In this document: positions 9,929-38,246 of the stretch, in pieces | Numbering within the stretch: the first letter of the stretch is position 1 | Layout: every line of letters begins with the position of its first letter | Origin: Candidatus Shapirobacteria bacterium | Lineage (GTDB): Bacteria; Patescibacteriota; Microgenomatia; UBA12405 | Length of the DNA: 64,000 nucleotides | Assembly (NCBI GenBank): GCA_028704885.1 | Contig: JAQWEN010000001.1 | Location: 109,172-173,171 of the forward strand | Reading direction: 5' to 3' | The notes under the pieces: model-generated | What the model saw: only the letters and a program-made list of their open reading frames with translations | What the model was told of the DNA's origin: nothing | Database searches by the model: none | Position numbers and translations under genes: made by a program

Positions 9929-12855
<2,927 letters not shown>

Positions 12856-20427: not shown

Positions 20428-20436
20428 TCAGATACT

Positions 20437-22602: not shown

Positions 22603-22659
22603 TTTTTCAGCTATTCAGTTGATCAGATAGTCAGATAAAAAAGTGTTATCATTATCACA

Positions 22660-23019: not shown

Positions 23020-23047
23020 CTATCTGAAGAACTGATAGTCTGACAAA

Positions 23048-24235
23048 CTAATTGATTATCCACCACTTAAATTCAATGTCTTCATTGATAGGAGAGCTGA
23101 GACCGACAGTAAATGATTCCTTCGATTTGCTCAGGACTTGGAGATTCTGATTTTTGCCACCTTTTGTTGCAGTTACATAGACTTGGGAAGTAGAAGTAAG
23201 TTGACTATTAGAGATAGAAATTTCCTTTTGATTAGATGGTAAAACAGAATTACCAGAGAGAGAATTAGAGTCGGTTTGGTTGGTGACAGCAATAGAAGTG
23301 TCTTCTTCAGGAGCGGCGACAATTAAACCACCATCAGCTAAAGCTTGAATAGTAGGAGAGTCGATGGTTGGAGCGATTGTTGGTTGGAGATTATCGATTG
23401 TCGAAGGGGAAGTATTTTTAAGATTTGGATTTTGAGAAATAAGTTTTTCAAGAGCTGACTTTTCGGATTCAACTTGAATTTTTTGAGTGGAGTCAGTAAC
23501 AATACTTATAAGGCGATTGTAGGTTTCTAATGCTTGAGGGAAAAGACCGACTTGTTGTTGAATCTTGGCTAAGTCATAAAAATTTTGAGCTTTAGTTGGT
23601 TCAAGAGCGACGGTTTGATTTAAATAGAGAATAGTATTTTGAGCATCGCCTTTTTTGGCATAGAGAGAAGCAAGGGTGTGAGTTATTTCAGCAGAAGAAG
23701 GATTTAATTTTTGAGCAGCGGCAATATCAGATATAGATTGATCTATAAGTTTAGGTTGTGAATCAGTAAGTGACTGGTAGATTCGACCGCGTTGTTGGTA
23801 GCCACGATAGTCGTCTGGGAATTCTTTTATGGCTTCAGTAGCAGCTAATATGGATTTATTGAGCAAATCGATGGTTAATGATTGATCTTTTTGGTTTTGA
23901 AGAGCTTGGGTAAATAATTGTTGTGATGTTAAAAGATAATGTTGGATAGATTTAGGTACTTGTGTTGGAGTAGGAGAGTTAGATCTCAGTTTATCAGATG
24001 TCGGTTGATCAGTTAAAACGGTTGAAGAATGACCTTTTAAAATAATTAGGCCGGAAAAAGAAAGAAGAGTGAGACCAGAGATGGAAAGTAAAGGAAAAAT
24101 TGGGAGAGTCAATTTAGATTTCAGTTTGTCAGTTGTCAGTTGTTCAGTTTTTAAAAATTCATTATTTTGATTTGAATCTTTGATGTCAATGCCGAGGGAT
24201 TTTAATTTTTCAATTTGATCGGGGGTGTAATCCAT
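23048..24235 (-). CDS. Membrane-anchored TPR-repeat protein whose C-terminal 'WWIIN' domain is shared with the adjacent giant protein
   Basis: One TM helix 'LPIFPLLSISGLTLLSFSGLIIL', TPR-like repeats and the C-terminus '...SKSKESFTVGLSSPINEDIEFKWWIIN'. Confidence 0.6.
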   Translation of the reverse strand: MDYTPDQIEKLKSLGIDIKDSNQNNEFLKTEQLTTDKLKSKLTLPIFPLLSISGLTLLSFSGLIILKGHSSTVLTDQPTSDKLRSNSPTPTQVPKSIQHYLLTSQQLFTQALQNQKDQSLTIDLLNKSILAATEAIKEFPDDYRGYQQRGRIYQSLTDSQPKLIDQSISDIAAAQKLNPSSAEITHTLASLYAKKGDAQNTILYLNQTVALEPTKAQNFYDLAKIQQQVGLFPQALETYNRLISIVTDSTQKIQVESEKSALEKLISQNPNLKNTSPSTIDNLQPTIAPTIDSPTIQALADGGLIVAAPEEDTSIAVTNQTDSNSLSGNSVLPSNQKEISISNSQLTSTSQVYVTATKGGKNQNLQVLSKSKESFTVGLSSPINEDIEFKWWIIN

Positions 24236-24253
24236 ACTTAATTTTAATAACTT

Positions 24254-27200
24254 TTAGTTAATAATCCACCAGTTAATAATAATGTCTTGATCTAAATAGT
24301 TGTCTAAAGCAATAGTAAAAGAGGATTCTGATTCAGAAACAACTTTGGATTTAACGTATGGAACTTGGTTTTTGGTGGAACCGACTGGAGTGAGATAAAC
24401 CATAGAATTTGGAGTGATTTTATTATTACTAATAATTATTTCAGTTTTGCCGGCTGGAAGGGTGGCAGTGCCAGCGGTGGCATTGGAGGTTAATTGAGAA
24501 GAACTGGTAGCAATGGCACCGAAACCGGATTCAGCAATAATGGTTTGAGCACTATCAGTTGAGATTTTCAGTTTATCAGATATCAGTTCTTCAGATGTTA
24601 ATTTTTTGGTTTGGATTTCGTCGGCAGTAATTAAATTGGCCATTAAACTGCCAGAGACTTTAAGATTGCCGGTGATTTCAACTTCGCCATTTTCGGCAAT
24701 AACCAAAGTGTCGCCCATGATATGAACAGAACCAGTAGAAGATGGTTGAATGAAAAGAGCGGAGTTGGTAGTTTCAATTAAATTATCTTTAATAGCAATT
24801 TCACCAGTAGTGAAAGTGCCAGTGACAAAGGCATTACCAAGTTCGGTGTCGCCTTGGACCATAAGTTTGGCACCGACAACAAGATTATTAGTAAGAGCGA
24901 GATCGCCGTTTATTTTAGCCGAATCACTGGCAATATTCATTGACCAATCAGAAGATTGAGACATAATTGAGCTGCCAGTGATGGCAGAGGATGAGGCTTC
25001 GTTTGTAGAAATTAATTTTTTAAGTTCATCGCGGAGAGAACTAACCTTGGCGGTCATTAAATCACCAAAAGAACCTTCTTTGGAAATAATGTTGTCGGCA
25101 TATAAAGTAGATACGCTCGCTTCGCGGGCTGTCAGTTTGTCAGATATCAGTTCGTCAGTTGTTAAGGTTCCGGAAATGGTGGCAGTGGTAGCAGTTAATT
25201 CGTCAATGTTGGCTTTTGGAGAAATAATTTTTTCAGCGACTAAGTTTTTAGTAACTATATTAGTAGCGGAAATTAAACCAGCTTTGATTTTAGCGGAAGC
25301 GATTTCGGCAAATTGTCCCATGCGAGTGACAGTAGCGCCAAGAGTATCCGTTAGAGAATAAGTGGCTGCCTCGATTTCATTTTTGGCACCATCGTAACCG
25401 AGAGAAGCGAGAACTTCATCGGAAACATTATAATTGACATTAATTTCGCCAGTAGCAGTAATAGAAAGATCTTTATTGAGATTGGTAACTTTAGCATCAA
25501 CTTCTTGAATGCCACGGATGGCTAAAGGAATCATACCAATATAGTTAATACTCTTATAACCATCGCTGCCAGTATTAACGAAACTTGGAAGAATTTGTTC
25601 AACATCTTGGGCAATGAAACCGTATTGTCGTTGAGCCATCTCTTGAGGATTAGTTATACCAACTTTGTCAGCATAAGCTTGGTTCCAATTGAAACTGACT
25701 GGATTAAGACTATTAAGAACGGAAAGACTGTCAAAAATTTCAATATTAGGGTTGGAGCTAGAACCAAGTCCAATGTTAACAACATCATCTTTAAGTCGTT
25801 GATCGGAAAGCCAGCTGGTACTAGAACTCCAGTCAGGAGAATTACTAGAGTAAAAAGGTCGACCATTAGTATCCATACCAATTTGTCGATTGGCATGAGT
25901 AAAACATAATTCATCACCGTTACCGCCAGAGACAGTACATTGAGAGATTGTCCAGCTGCCGATAGTAAAAGCATCACCTTGAGCAACATAAGTATATTCG
26001 GTACTACCGTTGAAGGCACGAATACGATCAGCATGGGTATGAATGTTCCAAATGTTGGCTGTGGTTTCATCTTTAACATTGATACCACCAGCTGATTGGC
26101 TGGAAGGAGTACCAGAGATATAAAGAGCACCGCCGGTTATTTCCATTTTACCGTAGGTAGCATTAGGACTAGCGGTGCCGACACCGACATTGCCACTACC
26201 AGTAAGAGATAAAGCCATTGATTCTCCAGCATTTGGGTATGATTTAACATAAAAACTTAGATTTGTTAAATTAGCACCAGAACCACTAGCAGTGAAGGCT
26301 GATCTGGCGTAATAGCTTGTAGGTTCATTACTATAACTCCATCTTAAGTTAGGACCACTAGAGGAAATATCTAAATTTGATTGAGGATTAGTAGTTCCAA
26401 TGCCGACATTGCCACCAAGAGGATTTAACATTAAAGGAAAAGTAAAATTATCGCTTTCTCTCATTGCTTGTAGCCAAGATCCATAAGTTGGACCTCCAGC
26501 CAGAGTACCAATATGGACACCAGCGTCACCTCCTAAAAATTTTGCAACTGCATTGACAGAAGTTATTGTATTATTTTGTGATCCTTTTACGTCCAATTTA
26601 GCTCCTGGATTGGTGGTGCCGATGCCGACGAGGCCAGTATCAGTGATGATCATTCTATCAGTTGTTCCAGCGTCGGCGTTAGCAGTAGCGAATATTATGG
26701 AACCAGATCCATAATTTGCAGCTCCTCTTTTAACCCAAATTGAGGCATTGTTGGCAGTGTTACCTGTGTTTCTCCAAAATATTTGACCTAAGTTGTTATA
26801 AGAACTGCCACCAGAACTTTTTAGTGCTATATTTCCTGCAACTTCTAATTTTTCCAAAGGATTGGTGGTGCCGATGCCGACTTTGCCAGCGAAATAATTA
26901 TTTCCAGTACCGACAGTACTGATTTCACCAGCAATTTGGAAATCACCGTTACCACTTAGAGCAGCAATATTAGTGGTGGCTAGTTGCCAAATCCAACCTC
27001 GGGTGGTGGCACCAGAAAAACGATTGTATAAAGCCCAATCGTTAGTAACTGGACCATAAGTTCCATAACCAGCGGTGGCAGTGGTTTGCATTTGAGTGAA
27101 ATAACCATTACCTAATGAGCCATAATAACTGAGGGATCTATTACTGCTAGCGGTTAGTTCAATACTAGTTCCAACAACAAGAGAGGTGCCAACATTGAGG

Positions 27201-30200
27201 GAAGTAGAAATATTACCATTGCCAATAACATGTAATTTACTAGTTGGATTAGTGGTGCCGATGCCGACATAACCACCACTTGGTTGTAGAGATAAATTAT
27301 AAGCGACAGCTGTTCCACCAACATTTTGAGATTGTATAAAACCGCTTCCATTGGTTAAAATACCCGAAATTAAACCACTGTTGTTTTCGGCTAATAATCC
27401 AAATTGACCCCAATTATATCCTAGAACTGGAGAATCAGAACTATACTGCCAGACACTTAATGGATAATCATGGGCGGTGGTTCCAATGGCAACATGGCCT
27501 TCAGCAATTGTCATAGCAATAGTTTCATTAGACCAATCATTGGTTGAAAATTGAAGATGACCATATGGGGAGGCAAACCCAGACCAATCAGTATAGGATT
27601 TGATGGTTCCGGTTGGGAAATTATAGCCAGGATTGCCAGTGCGGAATTCAATGGCAGTAGCGTTACCGACAGCCATAGTGGCACTGTTATTAAGAGTTAT
27701 AACTGGACCTAGTCCAGCACTAACAGATTTTTCTAAATGGAGAAGAGTTGTTGGATTGGTGGTGCCGATACCGACATAACCTCCGGTTTTTAAAAATAAT
27801 TGATTATCCCAACCAGTAACAGCGGTACCGGCAGTAGTGGTACCACTGGAAGCAATTAATAAACCGTTAGTGAAATTTTGAATTCTTGAGGCAGCACCAG
27901 CGGTAATGTGATTGCCATTGTCGTTATAATTAAATCTAATTGAACCAATATAAGAAAGAGAAAGAGAACTATTGGTAGTGCTGGCATTGGCTGAATCTAA
28001 TCCAAATTGAGTATCGCCAACATCTAAGAATTTTTGACCAATAACATTATTACTAGCTTTAATATTACCAACAACGTCAAGTTTTTCGATAGGATTGGTG
28101 TTGCCGATACCGACATAACCAGAGGCTAGAATTCTTAAAGCTTCGACAGCACCAACTGAGAGAGATAAATTATTGGTGGTTGGTCTCCAAAGGCCAGTGT
28201 CAGTGTCGGTGATAAAAGAATATCCAGGAGCAGAAACAGTACCATTGGCAGCTAAATGAATTTTAGAAGAACTAATGACAGTGGTACCGCCAATATTAAT
28301 ATTTCCAACTACATTAAGAGAAGTACCAACTGCTAATGAAGTAGTGATATTTCCATTACCAACAACATTGAAAGTAGCAGTACCAGTAGCGCCAACACCA
28401 AATTTACCTGAAATTAAAGCATTGCCGTTAACATGGAGATTGTAAAGAGGATTAGTGGTGCCAATACCGACATAACCAGAGGCTAGAATTCTTAAAGCGT
28501 CGACAGCACCAACTGAGAGAGATAAATTATTGGTGGTTGGTCTCCAAAGGCCGGTGTCAGTGTCGGTGATAAAAGAATATCCGGGAGCAGAAACAGTACC
28601 ATTGGCAGCTAAATGAATTTTAGAAGAACTAATGACAGTGGTACCGCCAACATTAACATTTCCAACTACATTAAGAGAAGTACCAACTGCTAATGAAGTA
28701 GTGATATTTCCATTACCAACAACATTGAAAGTAGCAGTACCAGTAGCGCCAACACCAAATTTACCTGAAATTAAAGCATTGCCGTTAACATGGAGATTGT
28801 AAAGAGGATTAGTGGTGCCGATACCGACATAACCAGAAGTTCCTGGTAAAAGATTAATATCACCCGTGCTGAATGTTGTTGTAAGAGTTAAATTACCAGT
28901 ACTACCATTGTAGAGTTCTATACCACCATACGAACCAGCACCGGCATTATTCCCGTATATTGATTGGGTAGCATCTAACAAAATAGAACCTCCAGCAATA
29001 TCTAATTTTGCTCCAGGGTTGGTGGTGCCGATACCGAAATTGGTGCCGTCTGTCCAAAGATTAGAAGAATTTAAAATTATTTTGCCAGCGTTATAGGTTT
29101 GTAAGGTTAAATTACTGGAACCAAAAACTTCACCGGTATTGATGGCGATTGGGCCGGCGGTGTTAATATTGGCTCCAGTTGAATTAGTAAAATTCAAATC
29201 ATAAGCAATGGAAACATCACCGTTGGAAAGGAAAGCGGTGGGGTTATAAAAAGTATTACCGGCACTAGAGAAAGAAGCAAAAGTAGACCCAGCATCAGAA
29301 AAGGTTAAAGAGAAACCAGAGAGACCAATATCAGTATTTTGAGATAGAAGACCACCAAGACCAAAAGTAATGGAAGTTCCAGAACCAAGAGTGGTAAGAC
29401 CATTGAGACCAGTGAAACTAAGAGTAGAACCGTTACCTATGGAAAGATTATTAGCGCCAATTTTAGCAACCCAACCAAAGGAAGCATTGTTCATGAAAGC
29501 TAGATCTCCTAAAGCTCTTTTAGTAATGGTGCCATTGGAAGCAATGAAGAGAGCAGTAGTACCAACAGAAGTAACATTAGTACCAGTTAGACTAAGAGTA
29601 CCAGCAATACCAACATTATTAAGAGCTGATCGACCAGTAACAGATAAAGTACCACCAATAGAGCCATTAGTACCAACAGTAAGAGAAGTACCAACTGCTA
29701 ATGAAGTAGTGATATTTCCATTACCAACAACATGTAATTTACTAGTTGGATTAGTGGTGCCAATACCGACGTTACCATCGCCAGTAATGCGCATTTTTTC
29801 AACAGGAGAGGAAGCTGCAGTAGGGTTAACAAAGAAAGAAAGATCTATTCTATTTGCCCAACCAGTACCTGCTACAGCCGCAATACCAGCCCATTTATTT
29901 AATTCATTTGGTCCTGCTTCACTACTTATTTTTAATTTTAGACCAGCACCATAATTAGTTAAATTTGCATTTCCTTCATTTTTAATATCCTGACCCCAAA
30001 GTATTTGACTACTATCGGAGCCGGCATATACTTCTAATTCACTTGCTGGGTTGGTGGTGCCGATGCCGACATTACCTGTGTTTCTTTGAATGAATAGAGG
30101 AGTATTCCAAGATGAATCTAAGTTTCCAGCGTTACCGTTATGAATTTGAAATGATAAATCAGATGATCTTGTACTTGCAGCATATCCCGTTTGAAGAATT

Positions 30201-33200
30201 CTTGCTCCATATCCACCCATAGTACCTCCATATCCCATATAAATAGCATTTCCATTATTGTCAGCAGTATTATTATTTTGTAAATATAAAGAATTAACAA
30301 CTGCAGCATAACCACTGTCTGAAATGGTTACTAATGCAGATGTTCCATTTGTTCCCATTACACTTAATTTACTTCCTGGATTAATTGTTCCAACGCCAAC
30401 GTTGCCATCACTTCTGATAACCATTTTGGTATTGGCCAAGGTGTTGGGGGTAGCTGCTTGAGATAAACCAAAAGCTAAAAGTTCATTAGTCCCATCGTAG
30501 TATTCAAATAATCCGGCTGCTCTCATGGTGGCAGCACTATATCTGGACAATATTAGTCCAGGCCCGGGAGTATTAGAACCCGTTTGTAAGGAATAAATTT
30601 CCAATTTTTCGTTTGGACTGGTTGTCCCAATGCCTACATTGCCAGAAGTAAACTGAAGATACATAACCTCAGTAGAACCAATGTTTAAGCGAGTATTTTC
30701 AGTAAGAGCATTGCCTAATTTGAATTGATTTCCGGTACCTAAAGTAATACCGTTGCCAGCAGTGTAGACAGTCCCAGCAGGTAGTGCCACTTGACCAGCA
30801 GTAGTTAATCGTCCTTGAGCATCAACAGTGAAAGTAGGAATAGAAGTACCAGAACCAAAAGAACCAGCAGTGACAGAAGTATTAGCTAAGTTAATATTAC
30901 GACTAACACCAGTACCAGTAATACTGATACCAACTCCATTAGTAAGAGTAGTAATGAAATTACCAGTAGAACCAACACCAACAAAACCAGTACTTTCGAT
31001 ACCATCTAATAAGTCGGCATCTAGGGTGGAAGTTGAACCATCATTATTAGAATTCCAACTTTCGTACCATGATCCCCAGTTGGTGACACCTATTCCCATT
31101 CTGGTCCAAAGGTTACCATTATCGGTATAAGCGATCTGAATTGGGTAACCACCAGACATATCGGTTGTGGCCCCATATTTTCTAAAAGTTAAAACACCAT
31201 GGTAGGTACCACCATCAGACAAACCATCTGTAGTATTGGCTTTGAAATCAGCGTATAAACCGGCATCTCTATCGTCTGGATCATAGTTGTTATTACGAGT
31301 ATCGGAACTAATCATACTGTTTTCGGTTGAAGCTCGACGAGTAAAATAAGTACTGCTAACGCCATCAAGTAAATCAGCATTTAGATTTGTAACTACAGTA
31401 GTATTTTGAGCATTAGTAGCTTTAAGAGTGGTGGTGGTAAGAGTGCCGCCAACCTCAAGATTAGTAGAAAAAGAAGCATTACCAATAACTTCGAGTTTGT
31501 GAGTTGGATTAGTGGTGCCGATACCGACATTGCCAGTAGAAAGATTACCGTAAATAATTGGACTTTGATTATTACCAATATAGAGACGATCATTGTAAGC
31601 ACCAGTGGCACCATTACTATTACCGATGAAAATATTATTGGAACCAGAAGTGAGATTCATGCCAGCCTGATAACCAATAGCGATATTTGAACTTAAAGTG
31701 GTACCAGAACGAAGTGCAGACGTACCTAAAGCAGTATTATAGCTACCGCTAACATTGGCACTAAGCGAATAATGACCCAAGCTGGAGTTACTAGAACTAG
31801 TATTAGCTTGTTGTGAATAAAAACCAATAGCAGTGTTGTAACTACCACTAACATTACTATAAAGAGAGATTGTTCCAGCAGCAACATTCTGACTACCAGT
31901 GGCATTACTATAGAGAGATTTGAAGCCAAAGGCGGTATTACTACTACCACTAGTATTGGAATATAAAGCTTGATAACCAAAACCACTGCCAGAGGATGCG
32001 GTATTGGTTCTACCAACGCCAACTCCAACGAAGGTACTGTGAGATGTATCATCACTGTCGGCTCGAATTTCTAAATTAACAGTACCGTTGGCATTAAGAA
32101 TATTGAAGGCTGGAGTTGTAGAATTTATTGAAGCAACTGTTAATTTAGCAAGAGGATTAGTAGTGCCAATACCGACGTTGCCAGAATTTGGATTAATAAG
32201 AACGTCACCAAAAGCACTACCAGCTGCGTTTACACCTTGAATCATAGCTTTTGCATTAGATTGTCCCATAAGAAAACCAGCTGATGAACTCTTAAACCAA
32301 GTATTATATCCAGATGAATCATTACCTTGAAAAATGGCAGCTTTTTCATTTACATTACTAATAACTTCCAACTTCGCTCCTGGACTGGTAGTCCCAATAC
32401 CCACATTACCACTAGCATATTGCAGGTACATAACCTCAGTAGAACCAATATTTAATCGAGTATTTTGAGTTAGAGCACCACCAAGTTGAAAAATATTATC
32501 AACAGTTTTAGTAATACCGTTATTGGAATTGTAAGTAGTGCCAATAGAAGTATTGTTAATCGTAATACTTGATCCAGATTGAACAAGAGAAATACCAACA
32601 CCATTATTGAAAGTGACAGTGGAACCAGTATCAATAGCAGTAGCAGCACCACTATTAGCTTGAAGCATCCAGTTTTGATAATCATCAGCACTAGATTTAT
32701 CCCAACCAACGGTACTGATGTAACCCATCAAACCACTATTACCACTTAAGAAAGCAGCAACAGAAGAACCACCAATAGCAGTATTACTGATATTTAATGA
32801 AGCAGTAGTAGTGGTAGTACCGACAGCTAAAGAAGTAGTGAAATTTCCATTGCCAACCACATTGAAAGTAGCAGTACCAGTAGCACCAACACCAAACTTA
32901 GACACTAAACCAGTACCAGAGATCCAGAAGTTAGAAGTAGATTGAGCAGAAGCAAATTGATTTTGAATGTAACGAGTATCAAAATTAACAGTAGCTAAAC
33001 TAGTTAAATGACCTAAACCATCAAGAGTAATATCTTGAATAACAGTACCGTTACTATTATCAGAGGAAGCTTGAGAAGAAGTATCAGCATGAGAGATAGT
33101 AGTACCAACTCCAGTACCAGTAATGACCATGGAAGTACCAGCTTGAAGATTGAGATTATTTTCAAAAGCTAAAGTACCAAGAACTCTTTTGGTAACAGTC

Positions 33201-35941
33201 CCATTAGCAGCAATCATTAAAGCAGTAGTACCAGTACCAGTATTAGTACCAGTAAGAGTTAAAGTGCCACCAACCGAAAGATTACCGGCAAAAGTAGAAG
33301 TGCCAGAAACACCAATACCACCAGCAGAGATAGTTAAACCAGCAAAGAGAGGAGTCGAAGAAGTGGTTAAGTGTTGTCCAGTATTGTAAGCCAATTGAGC
33401 ATCACCAATAGAATCACCAACGATAGCAAGCGACATACCAACACCTTCACCAGCAGCTCCAGTAACTGAAATTTGACCATTACCAATAATGGTAGAAACA
33501 TAATTACCATTGGTTTGAGTACCAAGAATGACATCTCCCCAGTTAAGATCACCATGCATTAATTGATTAGCAGTTCCAGAAGTACCAATAGTTTGATTAC
33601 TAGCATTGGTTCTCAGAAGAGTATTAGCAGTAACGCCACTAAGAGTTAAAGTACCACCAACTGTAGCATTGGCAAAAGTTTGAAGTGCTGTCCAAGTATT
33701 AGTAGAGCCAAGATTAAGAGAAAAGATATTATCAGAAGATAAACTTAAACCAGCACCGGCGAGATAGGTGGTACCAATTCCAGTATCAGGAGCCCAAAAA
33801 GAATTACCTGAAGAGTCAGAAGTTAAAATATAACCATTGAAAGCGCCTTGAGTTAAAGATAAAGTGCCACCAATGGTTAAATTACCAGAGATAATATCAC
33901 CAGTTTTTTTAACAAAAACACCTTCACCTGGGTCATATTGTTGCAAACGACTATTTTTATATTGATAAATTGGATGATACTGAAAAAGTCTTATTCCAGT
34001 GGTTGAGTACATTTGACCTAGTAAAATATAGACGAAACCATCATCTGTGGTAGGAAGAGTTTGAGTCATAAAACTGGTGTAGGAAGTATTATCTAAAACA
34101 AAATTACCAGAACTATTAATGGTTCCTTTAAGATAGATTGGAAGTTGATTTGTCCATGAGGCTTGGTTGGCAGTGTAATTTAAATAGGTGGTAGCGATAT
34201 CGCTGTAAACGTTGCTGAGAGTACCATTGATAGCAATATCAGTGGTACTGGAGTAATAGAGAATAGGGGAATTAATAGTAAATTCTTGAGTGGAAACAGT
34301 TTTAGTGTTAGTAGTGCCGGTTTGTAAGGTTAAGGGATACCATTTGCCATTTGAGGCTTGCATTATAAGTTTATAATCATAAATTGCAGCACCAGCGGTA
34401 ATAGCGTTGTTCCAATACATACTGGAATAAGTATCAGTATCAGAAGTTCGTTGAGAACCCATCATTTGGTAGTAAGTGCCATCATAGTAAAGTAAAACGG
34501 TGGAACTTGATCCAATAGACATAGTAGTGGTGGAGGCATCAGTGTTTCCAAGTCTAATTTTTTTAGCTCCAGTACTATTGAGATTTAAAGTAGGAGTAGA
34601 GACTGAATTACCATTAGCAAACATGACGGAAATTAAATCACCAGGAGTGAGAGTATAGTTAGCGGGGCCAGTACCAACTTTAGCAGCTGTGGCAGCAGGG
34701 GTATTGACACTAACTTTAACCGTAACGTTACGAATTGTTCCATTGGCTTTTATATCTCCAGAAACGGTTAAAGTGCCACCGACAAAAGTATTGCCGTTGG
34801 CATCAACTGAAAAACGAGAAGCATAATTACTAGTACTGGGATTAAAATTTTGAAAATCAATGAAATTATAGCCACGATTATCATTGCCGATTTGACCATA
34901 AAAAAGATTACCGGTAGATAAATTGGAATTAGTGGCAACAATAGCATTACTGGAACCGTTACCAGTGGTATTTAATTGAATGGCGCCATTAGGATTAACT
35001 GGATCAATTTTAATATTAGCAGTAGCTAAACTATTAGTGGCAGTGAACAATAAAGCCTGACCTTCAATTCCGAGAGTGCCGGAAGTGGATTTGATAGTAG
35101 GGGAAGTTTCACTTAACTTTAGGTTACCGTTGTCATCAATAACTAGCACTGTATTTTTTAGACCGCTAGCAGATGGAGGTAGACCTTGCAAAGTTTCAGT
35201 ATTTAAAGCATAGGCAACAGTAGCGATTGGTTGACGAGGATTCATAACTTCACCACCGGCAGTGATTTCGAGCCAGACTTCAGCGTTTTCAGAAAAAACA
35301 TTTGAAGGAATAGTGGTGCCATGGCTTTGACCAATGGTGACAGAAAAGATGCCATTTTCATCTGGAATAACAGTATTACTATTGCCAGATTCGGAAGTGT
35401 AAAGGGTAGTGCCAACTCCAGTAGTGCCAACATTGTAGAGTTTAAAAATGATACCAGTGGAAGATATTATAGGATTACCAGATGAATCAGTTAAACGACC
35501 TTGAAAAGATAAAAAATGGCCACCAGTAATTGGGGAAGTGGCAGTGGAATATGCTAGATTTTTTTGAGATTGAAGAAAGGCTTGACGGTAAAGGGTAAAA
35601 CCGAGACCGGCACCAACAGCAAAGAGGATAAAAATAGCAAGATATTTTGAAACCCACCTCCCCGCTGGTGAGGGGCCTCCTCCCTTGAAAAGGGAGGATA
35701 TTCTTTTTTCTTTTAAAAAAGGTAATTTTATTTTTTTTGGTAGCCATCCCTTTTCAAGGGAGGGTGCCAGAAGGGCGGGTGGGTTTTGAGCTTCAATTAA
35801 TTTCTTTTTGACGAGAAATTTTTGGAAAGAAGAAAGAGAAGAAAGCTTACGTTGAATACTGGCATCGGAAAGATTAGTGCTTTTTAGATAAGCAGCGTAT
35901 TGATTAAAATGAGACTGATTAAATAAATTATTTAGCTCCAC
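24254..35941 (-). CDS. Giant (3,895 aa) surface protein: N-terminal integrase-SAM-like domain, TM helix, tail-fibre-like repeats, an internal Peptidase_S74-like intramolecular-chaperone domain, a helical stalk and a C-terminal 'WWIIN' domain
   Basis: More than 20 'GxVGIGTTNPxxKLxV' repeats. 'SDQRLKDDVVNI...PVSFNWNQ...YGFIAQDVEQILPSFV...GYKSINYIGMIPLAIRGIQEV' matches the endosialidase-chaperone (S74) consensus. The C-terminus is 'SESESSFTIALDNYLDQDIIINWWIIN'. The N-terminal 'YAAYLKSTNLSDASIQRKLSSLSSFQKFL' is XerC/D-core-binding-like. Confidence 0.8.
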   Translation of the reverse strand: MELNNLFNQSHFNQYAAYLKSTNLSDASIQRKLSSLSSFQKFLVKKKLIEAQNPPALLAPSLEKGWLPKKIKLPFLKEKRISSLFKGGGPSPAGRWVSKYLAIFILFAVGAGLGFTLYRQAFLQSQKNLAYSTATSPITGGHFLSFQGRLTDSSGNPIISSTGIIFKLYNVGTTGVGTTLYTSESGNSNTVIPDENGIFSVTIGQSHGTTIPSNVFSENAEVWLEITAGGEVMNPRQPIATVAYALNTETLQGLPPSASGLKNTVLVIDDNGNLKLSETSPTIKSTSGTLGIEGQALLFTATNSLATANIKIDPVNPNGAIQLNTTGNGSSNAIVATNSNLSTGNLFYGQIGNDNRGYNFIDFQNFNPSTSNYASRFSVDANGNTFVGGTLTVSGDIKANGTIRNVTVKVSVNTPAATAAKVGTGPANYTLTPGDLISVMFANGNSVSTPTLNLNSTGAKKIRLGNTDASTTTMSIGSSSTVLLYYDGTYYQMMGSQRTSDTDTYSSMYWNNAITAGAAIYDYKLIMQASNGKWYPLTLQTGTTNTKTVSTQEFTINSPILYYSSTTDIAINGTLSNVYSDIATTYLNYTANQASWTNQLPIYLKGTINSSGNFVLDNTSYTSFMTQTLPTTDDGFVYILLGQMYSTTGIRLFQYHPIYQYKNSRLQQYDPGEGVFVKKTGDIISGNLTIGGTLSLTQGAFNGYILTSDSSGNSFWAPDTGIGTTYLAGAGLSLSSDNIFSLNLGSTNTWTALQTFANATVGGTLTLSGVTANTLLRTNASNQTIGTSGTANQLMHGDLNWGDVILGTQTNGNYVSTIIGNGQISVTGAAGEGVGMSLAIVGDSIGDAQLAYNTGQHLTTSSTPLFAGLTISAGGIGVSGTSTFAGNLSVGGTLTLTGTNTGTGTTALMIAANGTVTKRVLGTLAFENNLNLQAGTSMVITGTGVGTTISHADTSSQASSDNSNGTVIQDITLDGLGHLTSLATVNFDTRYIQNQFASAQSTSNFWISGTGLVSKFGVGATGTATFNVVGNGNFTTSLAVGTTTTTASLNISNTAIGGSSVAAFLSGNSGLMGYISTVGWDKSSADDYQNWMLQANSGAATAIDTGSTVTFNNGVGISLVQSGSSITINNTSIGTTYNSNNGITKTVDNIFQLGGALTQNTRLNIGSTEVMYLQYASGNVGIGTTSPGAKLEVISNVNEKAAIFQGNDSSGYNTWFKSSSAGFLMGQSNAKAMIQGVNAAGSAFGDVLINPNSGNVGIGTTNPLAKLTVASINSTTPAFNILNANGTVNLEIRADSDDTSHSTFVGVGVGRTNTASSGSGFGYQALYSNTSGSSNTAFGFKSLYSNATGSQNVAAGTISLYSNVSGSYNTAIGFYSQQANTSSSNSSLGHYSLSANVSGSYNTALGTSALRSGTTLSSNIAIGYQAGMNLTSGSNNIFIGNSNGATGAYNDRLYIGNNQSPIIYGNLSTGNVGIGTTNPTHKLEVIGNASFSTNLEVGGTLTTTTLKATNAQNTTVVTNLNADLLDGVSSTYFTRRASTENSMISSDTRNNNYDPDDRDAGLYADFKANTTDGLSDGGTYHGVLTFRKYGATTDMSGGYPIQIAYTDNGNLWTRMGIGVTNWGSWYESWNSNNDGSTSTLDADLLDGIESTGFVGVGSTGNFITTLTNGVGISITGTGVSRNINLANTSVTAGSFGSGTSIPTFTVDAQGRLTTAGQVALPAGTVYTAGNGITLGTGNQFKLGNALTENTRLNIGSTEVMYLQFTSGNVGIGTTSPNEKLEIYSLQTGSNTPGPGLILSRYSAATMRAAGLFEYYDGTNELLAFGLSQAATPNTLANTKMVIRSDGNVGVGTINPGSKLSVMGTNGTSALVTISDSGYAAVVNSLYLQNNNTADNNGNAIYMGYGGTMGGYGARILQTGYAASTRSSDLSFQIHNGNAGNLDSSWNTPLFIQRNTGNVGIGTTNPASELEVYAGSDSSQILWGQDIKNEGNANLTNYGAGLKLKISSEAGPNELNKWAGIAAVAGTGWANRIDLSFFVNPTAASSPVEKMRITGDGNVGIGTTNPTSKLHVVGNGNITTSLAVGTSLTVGTNGSIGGTLSVTGRSALNNVGIAGTLSLTGTNVTSVGTTALFIASNGTITKRALGDLAFMNNASFGWVAKIGANNLSIGNGSTLSFTGLNGLTTLGSGTSITFGLGGLLSQNTDIGLSGFSLTFSDAGSTFASFSSAGNTFYNPTAFLSNGDVSIAYDLNFTNSTGANINTAGPIAINTGEVFGSSNLTLQTYNAGKIILNSSNLWTDGTNFGIGTTNPGAKLDIAGGSILLDATQSIYGNNAGAGSYGGIELYNGSTGNLTLTTTFSTGDINLLPGTSGYVGIGTTNPLYNLHVNGNALISGKFGVGATGTATFNVVGNGNITTSLAVGTSLNVVGNVNVGGTTVISSSKIHLAANGTVSAPGYSFITDTDTGLWRPTTNNLSLSVGAVDALRILASGYVGIGTTNPLYNLHVNGNALISGKFGVGATGTATFNVVGNGNITTSLAVGTSLNVVGNINIGGTTVISSSKIHLAANGTVSAPGYSFITDTDTGLWRPTTNNLSLSVGAVEALRILASGYVGIGNTNPIEKLDVVGNIKASNNVIGQKFLDVGDTQFGLDSANASTTNSSLSLSYIGSIRFNYNDNGNHITAGAASRIQNFTNGLLIASSGTTTAGTAVTGWDNQLFLKTGGYVGIGTTNPTTLLHLEKSVSAGLGPVITLNNSATMAVGNATAIEFRTGNPGYNFPTGTIKSYTDWSGFASPYGHLQFSTNDWSNETIAMTIAEGHVAIGTTAHDYPLSVWQYSSDSPVLGYNWGQFGLLAENNSGLISGILTNGSGFIQSQNVGGTAVAYNLSLQPSGGYVGIGTTNPTSKLHVIGNGNISTSLNVGTSLVVGTSIELTASSNRSLSYYGSLGNGYFTQMQTTATAGYGTYGPVTNDWALYNRFSGATTRGWIWQLATTNIAALSGNGDFQIAGEISTVGTGNNYFAGKVGIGTTNPLEKLEVAGNIALKSSGGSSYNNLGQIFWRNTGNTANNASIWVKRGAANYGSGSIIFATANADAGTTDRMIITDTGLVGIGTTNPGAKLDVKGSQNNTITSVNAVAKFLGGDAGVHIGTLAGGPTYGSWLQAMRESDNFTFPLMLNPLGGNVGIGTTNPQSNLDISSSGPNLRWSYSNEPTSYYARSAFTASGSGANLTNLSFYVKSYPNAGESMALSLTGSGNVGVGTASPNATYGKMEITGGALYISGTPSSQSAGGINVKDETTANIWNIHTHADRIRAFNGSTEYTYVAQGDAFTIGSWTISQCTVSGGNGDELCFTHANRQIGMDTNGRPFYSSNSPDWSSSTSWLSDQRLKDDVVNIGLGSSSNPNIEIFDSLSVLNSLNPVSFNWNQAYADKVGITNPQEMAQRQYGFIAQDVEQILPSFVNTGSDGYKSINYIGMIPLAIRGIQEVDAKVTNLNKDLSITATGEINVNYNVSDEVLASLGYDGAKNEIEAATYSLTDTLGATVTRMGQFAEIASAKIKAGLISATNIVTKNLVAEKIISPKANIDELTATTATISGTLTTDELISDKLTAREASVSTLYADNIISKEGSFGDLMTAKVSSLRDELKKLISTNEASSSAITGSSIMSQSSDWSMNIASDSAKINGDLALTNNLVVGAKLMVQGDTELGNAFVTGTFTTGEIAIKDNLIETTNSALFIQPSSTGSVHIMGDTLVIAENGEVEITGNLKVSGSLMANLITADEIQTKKLTSEELISDKLKISTDSAQTIIAESGFGAIATSSSQLTSNATAGTATLPAGKTEIIISNNKITPNSMVYLTPVGSTKNQVPYVKSKVVSESESSFTIALDNYLDQDIIINWWIIN
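28091..28806. repeat. Near-identical tandem duplication of about 357 bp (2 x 119 aa) inside the giant-protein gene
   Basis: The DNA block from aggattggtgttgccgataccgacataaccagaggctagaattc to ggagattgtaaagagg recurs with a handful of point differences. The protein segment 'SGYVGIGTTNPLYNLHVNGNALISGKFGVGATGTATFNVVG...ALRILA' is repeated. Confidence 0.8.
35649..35697. repeat. RPE-like repeat (family 1), reverse-type unit, translated in-frame in the giant protein N-terminus
   Basis: aaacccacctcCCCGCTGGTGAGGGGcctcctcCCTTgaaaAGGGagga encodes '...SSLFKGGGPSPAGRW...'. Confidence 0.65.
35744..35786. repeat. RPE-like repeat (family 1), forward-type unit; it forms an inverted pair with 35649-35697
   Basis: ccatCCCTTttcaAGGGagggtgccagaagggcgggtgggtttt encodes '...NPPALLAPSLEKGW...'. 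Confidence 0.65.
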
Positions 35942-36356
35942 TTTCTACCCAATTTATAAATTGATGAATATCATTGATATAGTTACGAATAGTCGAAATG
36001 GAGAATTTTTTGGTTTCGAGCTGCTGTTGATATTGACTAATAATATTTTCAAGGTTAGTTTGTGGTTGAACTTTGAGAGCTTTGAGAAAAGGATTTTCAG
36101 AAATTAAATGTTGGTCTAAAGCAAATTGAAAGAATTTAGAGAGAGAGGCAAGAAAACGTTTATAGTTTTGGTCTTGATTAATGTTTTGAAAATAGGAAGT
36201 TAAATTATCTTGATTAAAAATTTGATCAGTTAATTGATTTTCATCTGGATTAGTAAAGAGAAAGTATTTTCGCAAATCCATTAAGTAGTTTCTGATAGTG
36301 GCATCAGAGTAAGACTTGGACAGAAGCCAATTTTTATAAGAATTGACTATTTCCAT
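35928..36356 (-). CDS. Protein made only of phage-integrase N-terminal (SAM-like/core-binding) domains, two tandem copies, with no catalytic domain
   Basis: 'YKNWLLSKSYSDATIRNYLMDLRKYFLF' and 'LETKKFSISTIRNYINDIHQFINWV' fit the XerC/D N-domain pattern f..yL....S..Ti..Y...l..f..f. There is no R..HxxR..Y catalytic region. It overlaps the giant-gene start by 14 nt. Confidence 0.6.
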   Translation of the reverse strand: MEIVNSYKNWLLSKSYSDATIRNYLMDLRKYFLFTNPDENQLTDQIFNQDNLTSYFQNINQDQNYKRFLASLSKFFQFALDQHLISENPFLKALKVQPQTNLENIISQYQQQLETKKFSISTIRNYINDIHQFINWVESGAK

Positions 36357-38241: not shown

Positions 38242-38246
38242 CGTTT

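What the first reader, a model, noticed from the sequence alone, without database searches (positions are those of the whole stretch)
24254..35941. 3,895-aa giant protein combining tail-fibre-like repeats with an internal S74 intramolecular-chaperone domain
More than 20 copies of the 'GxVGIGTTNPxxKLxV' repeat are followed by a clear match to the self-cleaving C-terminal chaperone domain of phage tail spikes and endosialidases ('SDQRLKDD...VSFNW...YGFIAQDVEQILP...YIGMIPLAIRGIQE'). That domain normally terminates a protein and is autoproteolytically removed. Here it lies about 550 aa before the C-terminus. After it comes a helical stalk rich in 'ISDKL' heptad-like words and a terminal domain. 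The arrangement suggests a phage-tail-fibre-derived adhesin re-purposed as a cell-surface attachment organelle, possibly matured by S74 self-cleavage at the Ser of the SDQRLK motif.
Basis: partly seen in the sequence, partly recalled or inferred. Interest (0 to 1): 0.8.

Follow-up and report, generated by a model that had tools for sequence, protein, structure and literature searches.

The report
Giant membrane-anchored phage-like fibre protein
A tiny-genome (CPR/Microgenomates) bacterium encodes a roughly 4,000-residue, membrane-anchored surface fibre built from phage tail-fibre parts, in which a self-cleaving S74 chaperone domain sits in front of a conserved, tailspike-like end-piece; it is one member of a large, undescribed protein family that may form these bacteria's attachment fibres.

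Summary
The 3,895-codon ORF (24254-35941, minus strand) is real, and the S74 match is solid. Pfam PF13884 gives E 5e-12. The Ser3379/Lys3384 dyad aligns to solved S74 chains, and the model's best fold match is the MyRF ICA domain. S74 is internal, 517 aa from the C-terminus.

The region after S74 is not mainly a helical stalk. It is a conserved ~430-aa cassette (helices, a short beta-helix, and a tailspike C-terminal beta-sandwich, PF24146).

This cassette defines a large family. A profile search found 3,433 cluster representatives, always matching at the extreme C-terminus, in proteins up to 5,657 aa. The named genome records are Microgenomates/Patescibacteria. The cassette usually follows a self-cleaving chaperone domain, S74 or G2-like.

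Complete relatives begin with two integrase SAM-like domains and one TM helix. In this window that N-terminus is split off by a 1-nt frameshift. The locus is chromosomal and syntenic across relatives, so it is not a prophage. The next gene carries the same terminal sandwich.

Best reading: an N-anchored trimeric surface fibre whose S74 domain cuts at L3378|S3379 and releases a conserved assembly cap. Cleavage and adhesion are inferred. This is a new variant of a known kind.

The parts
35928..36356 (-). Upstream 142-aa ORF. It holds one complete integrase SAM-like domain plus the first half of a second, and is the probable true N-terminus of the giant protein (cytoplasmic).
   Evidence: Pfam PF02899 E 7.7e-12 at aa 5-82, and PF13495 at aa 107-138 covering profile positions 3-34 of 85. 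Joined to the giant ORF it aligns contiguously to P0056.
35925..35945 (-). Frame break between the upstream ORF and the giant ORF. The ORFs overlap by 14 nt and the giant frame is +1 relative to the upstream frame, near the sequence GAAAGTGGAGCTAAATAA.
   Evidence: Sequence read. Relatives have one continuous ORF here. These data cannot tell whether the break is an assembly error or real.
35801..35920 (-). Second half of the second SAM-like domain (aa 8-47 of the giant ORF).
   Evidence: PF02899 profile positions 44-83 of 83, E 0.0013. TIGR02224 XerC positions 44-108 only; no catalytic domain.
35588..35644 (-). The only predicted transmembrane helix (aa 100-118, YLAIFILFAVGAGLGFTLY). Basic residues precede it, so the likely topology is N-terminus inside and the rest outside.
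   Evidence: Kyte-Doolittle scan: this is the only 19-aa window above 1.8 in 3895 aa. Topology is inferred from the positive-inside rule.
34682..35554 (-). Conserved membrane-proximal extracellular domain (about aa 130-420, 'LSFQGRLTD...PRQPIATVAYAL...LQGLPPSASG'). It is shared by the whole family.
   Evidence: Alignment to P0056. Present in P0100, P0099, P0108, P0069 and in the 4313-aa relative in L003.
26147..32410 (-). Fibre shaft carrying 16 copies of the GxVGIGTTxPxxKL motif (aa 1178-3265), spaced 73-314 aa apart and separated by beta-rich units.
   Evidence: PHROG tail-fibre families phrog_18345 (aa 1691-2140) and phrog_9942 (aa 3075-3497). The motif resembles the V-G-G/N-pi-x-x-P-x-x-x-L capping loop of Bdellovibrio MAT fibres and MyRF (PMC10769870).
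28064..28763 (-). Recent tandem duplication of a 357-nt (119-aa) shaft unit, 93-100% identical. It shows that the gene grows by internal duplication.
   Evidence: the repeat finder families D2 and D3. The duplicated protein segments are visible at aa 2370-2608.
25808..26146 (-). Unit just before the predicted cleavage site (aa 3266-3378). It holds the protein's only two cysteines (C3335, C3346) and would be the distal tip of the mature fibre if S74 cleaves.
   Evidence: Cys positions. In relatives this position holds unrelated domains: Kelch-like, FG-GAP and DUF4082.
25544..25807 (-). S74 intramolecular-chaperone / self-cleaving domain (aa 3379-3466). Dyad Ser3379 and Lys3384 in SDQRLK. Predicted scissile bond Leu3378|Ser3379 (nt 25807/25808).
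   Evidence: PF13884 E 5.1e-12. The family profile hits the S74 chains 6F45, 8JOV, MyRF 7DC3, T5 pb1 8HQZ and GA-1 3GUD, with the SDxRxK motif aligned. Foldseek top hit is the MyRF ICA domain 7DC3, E 4.4e-4, prob 1.00, and model pLDDT is 83-92 here.
24257..25543 (-). Conserved C-terminal cassette (aa 3467-3895), starting at 'DLSITATGEINVNYNVSDEVLASLGY' and ending at 'INWWIIN'.
   Evidence: 45 homologues, 42-77% identical among the closer ones. A profile search found 3433 cluster representatives, with the match always ending at the C-terminus. No Pfam or NCBIfam model covers it as a whole.
24997..25069 (-). Amphipathic helix inside the cassette (aa 3625-3648, 'GDLMTAKVSSLRDELKKLISTNE'); a candidate coiled coil.
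   Evidence: AlphaFold helix 286-307 in model 1 and 26-49 in model 2.
24662..24919 (-). Short beta-helix-like segment (about aa 3675-3760), weakly similar to bactofilin.
   Evidence: PF04519 at 19.5 bits, below the cut-off of 27.9, in this protein. 22 of 38 relatives match at E<=0.01, best 1e-7. AlphaFold places strands at 3709-3756 with pLDDT about 90.
24257..24502 (-). Terminal beta-sandwich (aa 3814-3895), the same domain that ends phage tailspikes (K1-lyase_C).
   Evidence: PF24146 E 7.3e-8, 33.2 bits against a cut-off of 27, when the last 120 aa are scanned alone. pLDDT 91-96. Foldseek: cyanophage Pam1 tailspike 7EEA (rmsd 2.5 A, 27% id, prob 1.00), K64-1 depolymerase 9K4A and K1 lyase 7W1C. 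40 viral matches at E<=1e-3.
23048..24235 (-). Downstream partner gene (395 aa): a hydrophobic, TM-like segment near the N-terminus, TPR repeats, and the same terminal beta-sandwich ending in 'KWWIIN'. It starts 18 nt after the giant ORF's stop, with no terminator-like site between them.
   Evidence: 41% identity to the giant's last 80 aa, E 4e-17. TPR Pfam hits. The hydrophobic segment is read from the translation. An ortholog sits in the same position in L006. 24 of 80 genome loci carry such a second ORF directly downstream. No terminator-like site.

Best explanation
The gene encodes a giant surface fibre of a Microgenomates (CPR/Patescibacteria) bacterium, assembled from phage receptor-binding-protein modules.

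Proposed organisation:
- Two integrase-type SAM-like domains sit in the cytoplasm.
- One TM helix anchors the N-terminus in the membrane.
- About 3,260 extracellular residues form a homotrimeric beta-structured shaft, perhaps of the order of 0.2 micrometre long. This length is a rough scaling from the Bdellovibrio fibre Bd3182.
- The shaft ends in a variable tip.
- The last 517 residues are an assembly cassette: an S74 intramolecular chaperone followed by a conserved mini-tailspike (helices, short beta-helix, tailspike-type terminal beta-sandwich).

Proposed mechanism:
- After Sec export, three C-termini associate through the cassette and the S74 domain. This sets the register for folding of the upstream trimeric shaft.
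- The Ser3379/Lys3384 dyad then cuts Leu3378|Ser3379.
- The S74-plus-cassette trimer leaves, the variable tip is exposed, and the mature fibre stays tethered by its N-terminal TM helix. It would serve for contact with other cells or surfaces.
- The neighbouring TM-TPR protein, which carries the same terminal sandwich, is proposed to dock or organise the cassette at the membrane.

Shown here: the domain identities, the intact dyad, the internal position of S74, the family-wide architecture, and the chromosomal synteny.
Inferred: trimerisation, cleavage, release of the cassette, an adhesive role, and the role of the TPR partner.
For: S74 identity:
- S74 passes the Pfam threshold.
- A family profile aligns SDxRxK to solved S74 chains. 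These include the cleaved GA-1 chain 3GUD, which begins at that Ser.
- The fold matches the MyRF ICA domain.
- Ser, Arg and Lys are invariant in 12 aligned S74 segments, 9 of them from cassette-bearing relatives.

The junction before the cassette:
- Among 192 cassette-bearing proteins classified locally, 43 have an S74 junction and 87 have a G2-like junction.
- The G2 assignment rests on PF11962, 'IMC autoproteolytic cleavage domain'. These hits are precomputed or below threshold.
- 26 of the 192 are N-truncated. The rest include a third, unannotated junction type.
- Interchangeable self-cleaving chaperone domains at one position point to selection for 'assemble, then cut' at that point.

Conserved cassette, variable passenger:
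- The cassette is the conserved part. The domains just upstream of the junction are unrelated between relatives: Kelch-like, FG-GAP, DUF4082 or a fibre shaft.
- This is the pattern expected for a variable binding tip with a constant assembly module.

Known S74 behaviour:
- In MAT Bd3182, S782 self-cleavage separates fibre and chaperone, and the authors state that exposure through S74 proteolysis is needed for ligand binding in this class (PMC10769870).
- That endosialidase, T5 pb1 and MYRF also separate into two products is recalled from my own knowledge, not read here.

Anchor and context:
- There is a single N-terminal TM helix.
- Complete relatives show the same SAM x2 - TM - shaft - S74/G2 - cassette layout.
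- Synteny with Rho, LysM-M23 and TPR genes holds across genomes.
- The partner gene with the same terminal sandwich recurs directly downstream in 24 of 80 loci.
Against: - No experiment or trimer model was possible. Both AlphaFold models are monomers, with low confidence for aa 3520-3620 and 3790-3812.
- In phage tailspikes the K1-lyase_C sandwich is a permanent distal domain, not a discarded one (PMC8822698). The cassette could therefore be a functional tip.
- Throwing away 517 aa per chain is costly. That favours the view that the released cassette has a function of its own.
- The G2 assignment rests on weak Pfam hits (20.6 bits against a cut-off of 25 for P0013).
- About a fifth of cassette proteins have junctions of unknown nature.
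- The 5' frameshift leaves open whether this particular copy is expressed intact.
Confidence: 0.55

Rival explanations
1. Permanent tip. S74 acts only as an internal trimerisation node, or it cleaves but the products stay bound. The conserved cassette (beta-helix plus tailspike sandwich) is then the working distal end of the fibre, binding a conserved ligand on the partner organism or on the cell's own envelope.
For: - The terminal sandwich is homologous to the permanent C-terminal domain of tailspikes.
- Helices and beta-helix-like segments in the cassette look like a continuation of a trimeric fibre.
- The neighbouring TPR protein carries the same sandwich, which could mean both proteins bind one common target.
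Against: - The catalytic Ser/Lys dyad is strictly conserved.
- The junction is either of two different self-cleaving chaperone types. That is hard to explain if cutting did not matter.
- In the S74 protein read about here, Bd3182, cleavage gives separate fibre and chaperone species.
- Receptor-binding tips are usually the most variable part of such proteins. Here the cassette is the most conserved part.
Confidence: 0.25
2. Released effector. Cleavage is the point of the design: the fibre serves as a delivery or assembly scaffold, and the freed S74-cassette trimer is a secreted tailspike-like particle that binds or degrades a surface polysaccharide.
For: - The cassette has the beta-helix plus C-terminal sandwich layout of depolymerase tailspikes.
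- It also occurs on short secreted proteins with a signal peptide, for example P0013 at 748 aa.
- High conservation suggests it has a function of its own.
Against: - The beta-helix segment is only about 90 aa.
- No enzyme family matches it.
- No catalytic motif was identified.
- A conserved effector that is always fused behind a variable passenger is an unusual arrangement.
Confidence: 0.1
3. A true phage or prophage tail-fibre gene, or a decaying pseudogene or assembly artefact, rather than a working cellular gene.
For: - The shaft, S74 and terminal sandwich are all phage-type modules.
- A frameshift splits off the 5' end.
- Internal repeats could mislead an assembler.
Against: - No phage structural, packaging or lysis genes lie nearby. 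The neighbours are rRNA, Rho, RadA, an M23 peptidase and PPDK.
- The same locus with the same neighbours is present in several Microgenomates genomes.
- An N-terminal TM anchor with cytoplasmic SAM-like domains does not fit a virion protein.
- An uninterrupted 11.7-kb ORF in DNA of about 38% G+C would not survive without selection.
- Giant relatives of 4,000-5,600 aa exist in independent assemblies.
Confidence: 0.05

Closest known systems
Bdellovibrio bacteriovorus MAT (mosaic adhesive trimeric) fibres, S74 subgroup, e.g. Bd3182 (PMC10769870)
   Same: Both are cellular, not viral, long trimeric fibres built from phage-RBP-like beta-structure. Both have an S74 domain with an SDxxxK motif, shown to self-cleave in Bd3182. 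Both have a repeated Gly/Pro 'capping-loop' motif (V-G-G/N-pi-x-x-P-x-x-x-L there, GxVGIGTTxPxxKL here) and variable tips.
   Different: MATs are about 1,000 aa, start with a signal peptide and a conserved ~130-aa beta-rich domain, and terminate in S74. Here the protein is about 4,000 aa and is anchored by an N-terminal TM helix behind cytoplasmic SAM-like domains. S74 is also followed by a conserved 430-aa cassette.
Phage S74 (CIMCD) proteins: K1F endosialidase, T5 L-shaped tail fibre pb1, GA-1 neck appendage
   Same: Same domain family with an aligned Ser-Lys dyad, placed directly after a trimeric receptor-binding region.
   Different: In these phage proteins the chaperone domain is, from my own knowledge, the last ~130-150 aa and is discarded. 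Here only about 90 aa are S74-like, and a further 430 conserved residues follow.
MYRF (myelin regulatory factor) ICA domain
   Same: It is the best structural match (7DC3) and a well-known case of an internal S74 domain with a large region downstream. From my own knowledge, cleavage there separates two functional halves.
   Different: From my own knowledge, in MYRF the TM helix lies downstream of S74 and cleavage frees an N-terminal DNA-binding trimer. Here the TM helix and the DNA-binding-type domains lie thousands of residues upstream, so cleavage would not release them.
Phage tailspike depolymerases with a C-terminal beta-sandwich (Klebsiella K1 lyase 7W1C, K64-1 S2-4 9K4A, cyanophage Pam1 tailspike 7EEA)
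   Same: The terminal 80 aa match PF24146 above threshold and superpose on these C-terminal sandwiches. The sandwich is preceded by a beta-helix-like segment, as in tailspikes.
   Different: The beta-helix here is about 90 aa rather than several hundred, has no recognisable active site, and lies downstream of a self-cleaving domain.
phi29-type Peptidase_G2 pre-neck-appendage autochaperone (PF11962)
   Same: In about half of the cassette-bearing relatives a G2-like domain takes the position that S74 has here.
   Different: It is absent from this protein, and the Pfam support in relatives is mostly weak.

Membership tests
Peptidase S74 / CIMCD (PF13884) | Profile match above the curated threshold | tested here: met
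   46.3 bits against a cut-off of 22, E 5.1e-12, aa 3379-3455. 49.9 bits when the C-terminal fragment is scanned alone.
Peptidase S74 / CIMCD (PF13884) | Catalytic Ser-Lys dyad in an S-D-x-x-x-K motif | tested here: met
   S3379-D-Q-R-L-K3384. It aligns with the motif in 6F45, 8JOV, 8HQZ and 3GUD. Ser, Arg and Lys are invariant in 12 aligned S74 segments.
Peptidase S74 / CIMCD (PF13884) | Fold of a solved S74/ICA domain | tested here: met
   Foldseek top PDB hit is the MyRF ICA domain 7DC3, E 4.4e-4, prob 1.00. Model pLDDT is 83-92 over the domain.
Peptidase S74 / CIMCD (PF13884) | Domain forms the C-terminus of the precursor | tested here: not met
   About 430 further residues follow the domain. 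MYRF shows that this feature is not universal in the family.
Peptidase S74 / CIMCD (PF13884) | Trimerisation-dependent autoproteolysis | not testable with these tools
   Needs expression of wild type and S3379A; no multimer modelling was available.
Bdellovibrio-type MAT fibres | Signal peptide followed by the conserved ~130-aa beta-rich N-terminal domain | tested here: inconclusive
   The N-terminus here is SAM-like domains plus a TM helix, so there is no signal-peptide start. No MAT sequence was available for direct comparison, so homology of the membrane-proximal domain to the MAT N-domain was not tested.
Bdellovibrio-type MAT fibres | Long fibre with repeated capping-loop motif and a variable tip, terminating in S74 or another tip domain | tested here: inconclusive
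   A similar motif is present 16 times. S74 is present but not terminal.
Tyrosine recombinase ('site-specific integrase', the name given to relatives in NCBI) | C-terminal catalytic domain with the RHRY active site | tested here: not met
   Only N-terminal SAM-like (core-binding) domains match. The XerC/XerD models align over positions ~42-114 at 16-25 bits, against cut-offs of 279-335. The 'integrase' name is a misannotation.
Bactofilin (PF04519; relatives are named 'polymer-forming cytoskeletal protein') | Profile match above threshold in a cytoplasmic polymer-forming protein | tested here: not met
   19.5 bits against a cut-off of 27.9 here. The best relative reaches 32.5 bits. The segment is predicted to be extracellular. 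The resemblance is a shared beta-helix repeat only.
K1-lyase_C (PF24146) tailspike C-terminal domain | Profile match above threshold and matching fold | tested here: met
   33.2 bits against a cut-off of 27, E 7.3e-8, for the last 120 aa. Foldseek matches 7EEA, 9K4A and 7W1C with prob 0.9-1.0. It was not reported when the full-length protein was scanned.
Prophage / virion tail fibre | Encoded in a block of phage structural genes | tested here: not met
   The neighbours are cellular genes, and the locus is syntenic between genomes.

The most novel reading that the evidence does not exclude
The S74-or-G2 junction, the conserved cassette and the adjacent TM-TPR protein with the same terminal sandwich together form a previously unrecognised, lineage-wide biogenesis system for giant surface fibres in Microgenomates.

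In this reading the cassette docks nascent chains on a membrane platform, sets the trimer register for thousands of residues, and is then cut off. It would be a self-contained 'assemble-and-release' pathway, functionally comparable to a sorting signal plus chaperone.

The fibres would be the long-sought host-attachment structures of these uncultured episymbionts. Their cytoplasmic SAM-like domains might couple the fibre to DNA or to signalling inside the cell.
Probability: 0.2. Interest if true: 0.8.

Novelty: new variant of a known kind. Interest (0 to 1): 0.6.

Why it matters
CPR/Patescibacteria make up a large share of bacterial diversity, and the cultivated ones live attached to other microbes. 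Apart from type IV pili in Saccharibacteria, the molecules that mediate contact are largely unknown (PMC12206443 abstract).

This gene belongs to a family with thousands of cluster representatives, including proteins of 4,000-5,600 aa. The family combines phage receptor-binding modules with a membrane anchor. In public databases its members are currently labelled 'site-specific integrase', 'bactofilin' or 'hypothetical'.

Recognising the family gives concrete candidates for the attachment fibres of Microgenomates. It also gives a testable cleavage site, and a natural experiment in which two unrelated self-cleaving chaperone domains are swapped at one position.

The finding extends the known uses of S74 beyond a terminal, discarded domain. 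It may also interest people who engineer long trimeric fibres.

Tried and rejected
- Diversity-generating retroelement: the bAvd/23S-IVP-like gene at 22660-23019 suggested the giant's 3' end might be a DGR target. No template/variable repeat pair was found in 17000-27000, and no reverse transcriptase was seen among the ORFs scanned nearby. Dropped.
- Intein or Hint domain as a third junction type: P0031 and P0032 looked like 'Hint + cassette'. Comparison with P0021 shows an intein inserted into the last helix of an S74-type protein, with the gene call starting inside the intein. They were not counted as a junction class.
- Single-sequence phmmer of the C-terminal 556 aa against PDB gave only a marginal hit (6F45, E 0.038). 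The family profile was needed.
- An exact 57-mer from the window found nothing in the GTDB representative genomes, so the source genome was not identified. The nearest cassette is 70% identical, in a Woesebacteria MAG.
- A homology search with the terminal-sandwich profile returned only 68-158-aa gene fragments. It did not show which other protein classes carry the domain. The downstream-ORF scan served instead.
- The full-length Pfam scan missed PF24146. It appeared only when the fragment was scanned alone.
- The monomer AlphaFold models leave aa ~3520-3620 and ~3790-3812 unresolved.
- Literature searches found no paper on S74 proteins in CPR bacteria or on this family. The library is open-access only, so absence is not proof.
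Full report
**1. The observation**

The ORF 24254..35941 on the minus strand is real: 3,895 codons with a GTG start. It lies in DNA of about 38% G+C, in a window that also carries a bacterial 23S rRNA, a 5S rRNA, tRNA-Ile and tRNA-Ala.

The pattern G.[VI][GA][IV]G[TN][TA] occurs 16 times between aa 1178 and 3250, spaced 73-314 aa apart. Shuffles of the same protein give 0.006 copies on average. The loosest pattern gives 20 copies, some doubtful, so 'more than 20' is an overstatement.

Pfam Peptidase_S74 matches aa 3379-3455 at E 5.1e-12 (46.3 bits, cut-off 22). Ser3379 lies 517 aa from the C-terminus, not about 550.

'ISDKL' occurs only twice. The region after S74 is not mainly helical.

**2. 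S74 is genuine and looks catalytically competent**

I built a profile from 12 S74 segments: this protein, eight cassette-bearing relatives and three unrelated S74-terminated proteins. It finds five distinct solved chains:
- the phage S16 fibre chaperone region (6F45, E 7e-17)
- 8JOV
- the MyRF ICA domain (7DC3)
- T5 pb1 (8HQZ)
- the GA-1 neck appendage chaperone (3GUD)

In each, the S-D-x-R-x-K motif aligns with SDQRLK. 3GUD is the cleaved domain and starts exactly at that Ser. By analogy, the cut here would be Leu3378|Ser3379.

Ser, Arg and Lys are invariant in the 12 segments. An AlphaFold model of aa 3340-3895 has pLDDT 83-92 over the S74 part. Its best PDB match is the MyRF ICA domain, at E 4.4e-4 and probability 1.00.

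**3. The region after S74 is a conserved cassette, not a stalk**

A search with aa 3340-3895 returned 45 proteins. Those that carry a source name are from Shapirobacteria, Woesebacteria, Beckwithbacteria, Gottesmanbacteria or 'Patescibacteria'.

These proteins share roughly the last 430 aa. The shared region starts at '...DLSITATGEINVNYNVSDEVLASLGY' and ends in an almost invariant '...NWWIIN'.

A profile of this region was run against 1.84 billion cluster representatives:
- It found 3,433 proteins at E<=1e-3 and 867 at E<=1e-30.
- In the listed hits that reach the end of the profile, the match ends at or within about ten residues of the protein's C-terminus.
- The host proteins range up to 5,657 aa, and many are 2,000-5,600 aa.

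A scan of GTDB representative genomes returned 87 loci. The informative record titles name Shapiro-, Woese-, Gottesman-, Beckwith-, Levy- and Roizmanbacteria. Many other MAGs are labelled 'uncultured Gammaproteobacteria' or 'Pseudomonadales'. One of those shares this window's exact gene order.

No Pfam or NCBIfam model covers the cassette as a whole. Its parts are as follows.
- **Helices.** There are helices at about aa 3541-3553 and 3625-3648.
- **Beta-helix.** A short beta-helix-like segment is weakly similar to bactofilin. It scores 19.5 bits here, below the cut-off. Among relatives, 22 of 38 match at E<=0.01. This explains why some databases name relatives 'polymer-forming cytoskeletal protein'.
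- **Terminal sandwich: profile match.** The terminal beta-sandwich (aa 3814-3895) has pLDDT 91-96. It matches PF24146 'K1-lyase_C' above threshold when the fragment is scanned alone (33.2 bits against 27).
- **Terminal sandwich: fold match.** It superposes on the C-terminal sandwiches of three phage proteins:
  - the cyanophage Pam1 tailspike (7EEA, rmsd 2.5 A, 27% identity)
  - the K64-1 depolymerase (9K4A)
  - the K1 lyase (7W1C)
- **Viral matches.** Forty predicted viral proteins match at E<=1e-3.

The K1-lyase paper describes this sandwich as a typical terminal feature of tailspikes (PMC8822698). The cassette therefore resembles a miniature tailspike.

**4. What precedes the cassette in relatives**

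I classified 192 cassette-bearing proteins with local HMMs:

| Junction before the cassette | Proteins |
|---|---|
| G2-like | 87 |
| S74 | 43 |
| N-truncated, not classifiable | 26 |
| Neither HMM matched | 36 |

- The G2-like class resembles Peptidase_G2, Pfam's 'IMC autoproteolytic cleavage domain'. Support comes from precomputed Pfam labels on several relatives. My own scan gave sub-threshold scores.
- The last group includes a third, unannotated junction ('GKLDAGTIDPPYTING...SYRLTAPRFD'). It also includes one protein with a 'PDYVFEDNY' domain (P0020).
- Two apparent 'Hint + cassette' proteins are S74-type proteins with an intein inserted in the last S74 helix (compare P0031 with P0021).

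The domains just upstream of the junction are unrelated between relatives. Examples are Kelch-like repeats, FG-GAP repeats, DUF4082 and a fibre shaft.

The rule is therefore: variable passenger, then a chaperone/self-cleavage domain, then a constant cassette.

**5. The N-terminus and the frame break**

The giant ORF begins with the second half of an integrase SAM-like domain. The 142-aa ORF just upstream (35928..36356) holds one full SAM-like domain and the first half of another. The two ORFs overlap by 14 nt in different frames.

Joined together, they align without a break to P0056, a single ORF in a relative, at 49% identity and E 3e-125.

Complete relatives of 1,250-1,420 aa all share one layout. 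Examples are P0100 from a Levybacteria MAG, P0099, P0108 and P0069. The layout is:
- two SAM-like domains
- a TM helix
- a conserved 'LSFQGRLTD...' domain
- a shaft
- an S74 or G2 junction
- the cassette

No recombinase catalytic domain is present, so the NCBI name 'site-specific integrase' is a misannotation.

The giant protein has a single TM-grade hydrophobic segment, aa 100-118. Basic residues precede it. I infer that the N-terminus is inside the cell and the remaining ~3,780 aa are outside.

**6. Genomic context**

The window's gene order is:
- RadA
- Rho
- a LysM-M23 peptidase
- a 690-aa multi-pass membrane TPR protein
- an Avd-like gene
- then, on the other strand, the 395-aa TPR gene and the giant gene

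The same neighbourhood surrounds family members in other genomes. Rho, the M23 peptidase and the membrane TPR protein flank them in two Levybacteria-type contigs (L001, L005). In L006 the order is nearly identical to the window. This is a chromosomal core locus, not a prophage.

The 395-aa gene starts 18 nt after the giant's stop, with no terminator-like site between them. It encodes a hydrophobic, TM-like segment, TPR repeats and the same terminal sandwich ending in 'KWWIIN'. That sandwich is 41% identical to the giant's, at E 4e-17.

Its ortholog sits in the same place in L006. In 24 of 80 genome loci a 360-500-aa ORF ending in this sandwich lies directly downstream on the same strand.

A relative's 708-kb contig carries a 919-aa cassette protein followed by a 4,313-aa S74 giant with the same membrane-proximal domain.

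**7. How the gene became giant**

The shaft contains a 357-nt tandem duplication at 93-100% identity (28064-28763), plus older diverged copies. Two PHROG tail-fibre families match the shaft, at E 1e-27 and 4.5e-25.

**8. Mechanism**

My best explanation is a membrane-anchored homotrimeric fibre. Its C-terminal 517 aa act as an assembly cassette that is cut off at L3378|S3379. This exposes the variable tip (aa ~3266-3378, which holds the only two cysteines).

The arguments for it are:
- the conserved dyad;
- the fact that two different self-cleaving chaperone domains occupy the same position across the family;
- the 'variable passenger, constant cassette' pattern;
- the behaviour of the characterised S74 fibre Bd3182, which separates into fibre and chaperone after cleavage (PMC10769870).

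That other characterised S74 proteins behave the same way is my own recollection, not something read here.

The shared sandwich and the tight linkage suggest that the TPR neighbour interacts with the cassette or works alongside it. The details are speculative.

The main rival is that the cassette is a permanent distal tip. Its support is that the terminal sandwich is a permanent feature of tailspikes.

I rate the overall model at 0.55. Within it, 'S74-bearing, N-anchored surface fibre' is much firmer than 'the cassette is released', and the partner's role is the weakest part.

**9. Comparison with what is known**

- **Bdellovibrio MAT fibres** are the closest characterised cellular system. They are S74-terminated, about 1,000 aa, start with a signal peptide, and carry a similar capping-loop motif.
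- **MYRF** is the precedent for an internal S74 domain and the best fold match. From my own knowledge, its TM helix lies on the other side of the cleavage site.
- **Two Bacteroidota-type hits** carry S74 followed by a T9SS sorting domain (P0039 and P0040). S74 in front of a C-terminal module is therefore not unique.

Four open-access literature searches found nothing on S74 proteins in CPR bacteria or on this family.

**10. Verdict**

- The core observation stands, with corrections to the details.
- The protein is not a singular oddity. It is an exceptionally long member of a large, undescribed family.
- I class it as a new variant of a known kind and score interest at 0.6.

Noticed in passing
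window 35925-36356 (-): The giant gene's 5' end is split by a +1 frame break near GAAAGTGGAGCTAAATAA. The upstream 142-aa ORF holds 1.5 integrase SAM-like domains. Relatives have one continuous ORF. This could be an assembly error, population heterogeneity or a real frameshift.
   Followed up: partly
window 23048-24235 (-): A 395-aa protein with a hydrophobic TM-like segment and TPR repeats ends in the same beta-sandwich as the giant protein ('KWWIIN'). The pairing recurs directly downstream of cassette genes in 24 of 80 related genome loci.
   Followed up: partly
window 20530-22602 (+): A 690-aa membrane protein has many hydrophobic segments and C-terminal TPR repeats. It is a conserved neighbour of the fibre gene in Levybacteria-type contigs (31% identity to the L001 neighbour, E 6e-53). 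Its N-terminal membrane part has no Pfam match, and its function is unknown.
   Followed up: partly
window 22660-23019 (+): A 119-aa protein matches 23S_rRNA_IVP (E 7e-44) and bAvd-like, which is the accessory protein type of diversity-generating retroelements. No template/variable repeat pair was found within 17000-27000, and no reverse transcriptase was seen among the ORFs scanned nearby.
   Followed up: yes
window 38536-42414 (-), 42433-42846 (-), 37055-37528 (+): There is a second large surface-protein cluster. It comprises a 1,292-aa protein with an N-terminal hydrophobic segment, DUF2341 and four LamG (concanavalin-like) domains, plus two small ORFs with Big_1/invasin-like Ig domains.
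   Followed up: no
window 55437-62570 (+): A third giant gene (2,377 aa) carries many Kelch repeats, fibronectin-III and purple-acid-phosphatase-N-like domains. At least three very large putative surface proteins lie within 64 kb of a small-genome organism.
   Followed up: no
window 7490-13178 (+): The rRNA layout is unusual. tRNA-Ile (7490-7564) is separated from tRNA-Ala-23S-5S (9681-13178) by two ORFs (7611-8771 on the plus strand, 8768-9412 on the minus strand). No 16S rRNA was found in the window.
   Followed up: no
window 37927-38534 (+): A Gp49-like (DUF891) gene and an HTH_3 gene lie next to each other, the layout of a HigB/HigA-type toxin-antitoxin pair, just upstream of the giant gene's 5' region.
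   Followed up: no
relatives P0054, P0055, P0066, P0067, P0068, P0074, P0090; P0031, P0032: Many relatives of this fibre family carry Hint/intein-splicing domains (PF14890, PF01079) inside the fibre gene. In P0066 the domain ends '...AHN|T' just before a GNLGIGTT motif. In P0031 and P0032 it sits inside the last S74 helix. Inteins or bacterial intein-like domains in surface-fibre genes are unusual.
   Followed up: partly
relatives P0037, P0041, P0166, P0241 and others (e.g. P0037 aa ~165-300): A conserved ~130-aa domain ('GKLDAGTIDPPYTINGxKYATY...GSDLWLFSK...SYRLTAPRFD') takes the place of S74 or G2 in front of the cassette in about a fifth of family members. It has no Pfam match and may be a third kind of chaperone or cleavage domain.
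   Followed up: partly
L006 3-1268 and 1272-3518: In the genome with the most similar gene order, the locus holds two genes. One is a fibre with GNVGIGTT motifs ending in a Cys-rich knob. Three bases later comes a separate 748-aa signal-peptide protein (P0013) with a G2-like junction and the cassette. Shaft and cassette can therefore be encoded separately.
   Followed up: no
L007-L086 record titles: Many MAGs that carry this Microgenomates-type cassette are deposited as 'uncultured Gammaproteobacteria' or 'Pseudomonadales'. One of them (CAZIZX010000005.1) has the same gene order as this window. The labels look like placeholders or errors.
   Followed up: no
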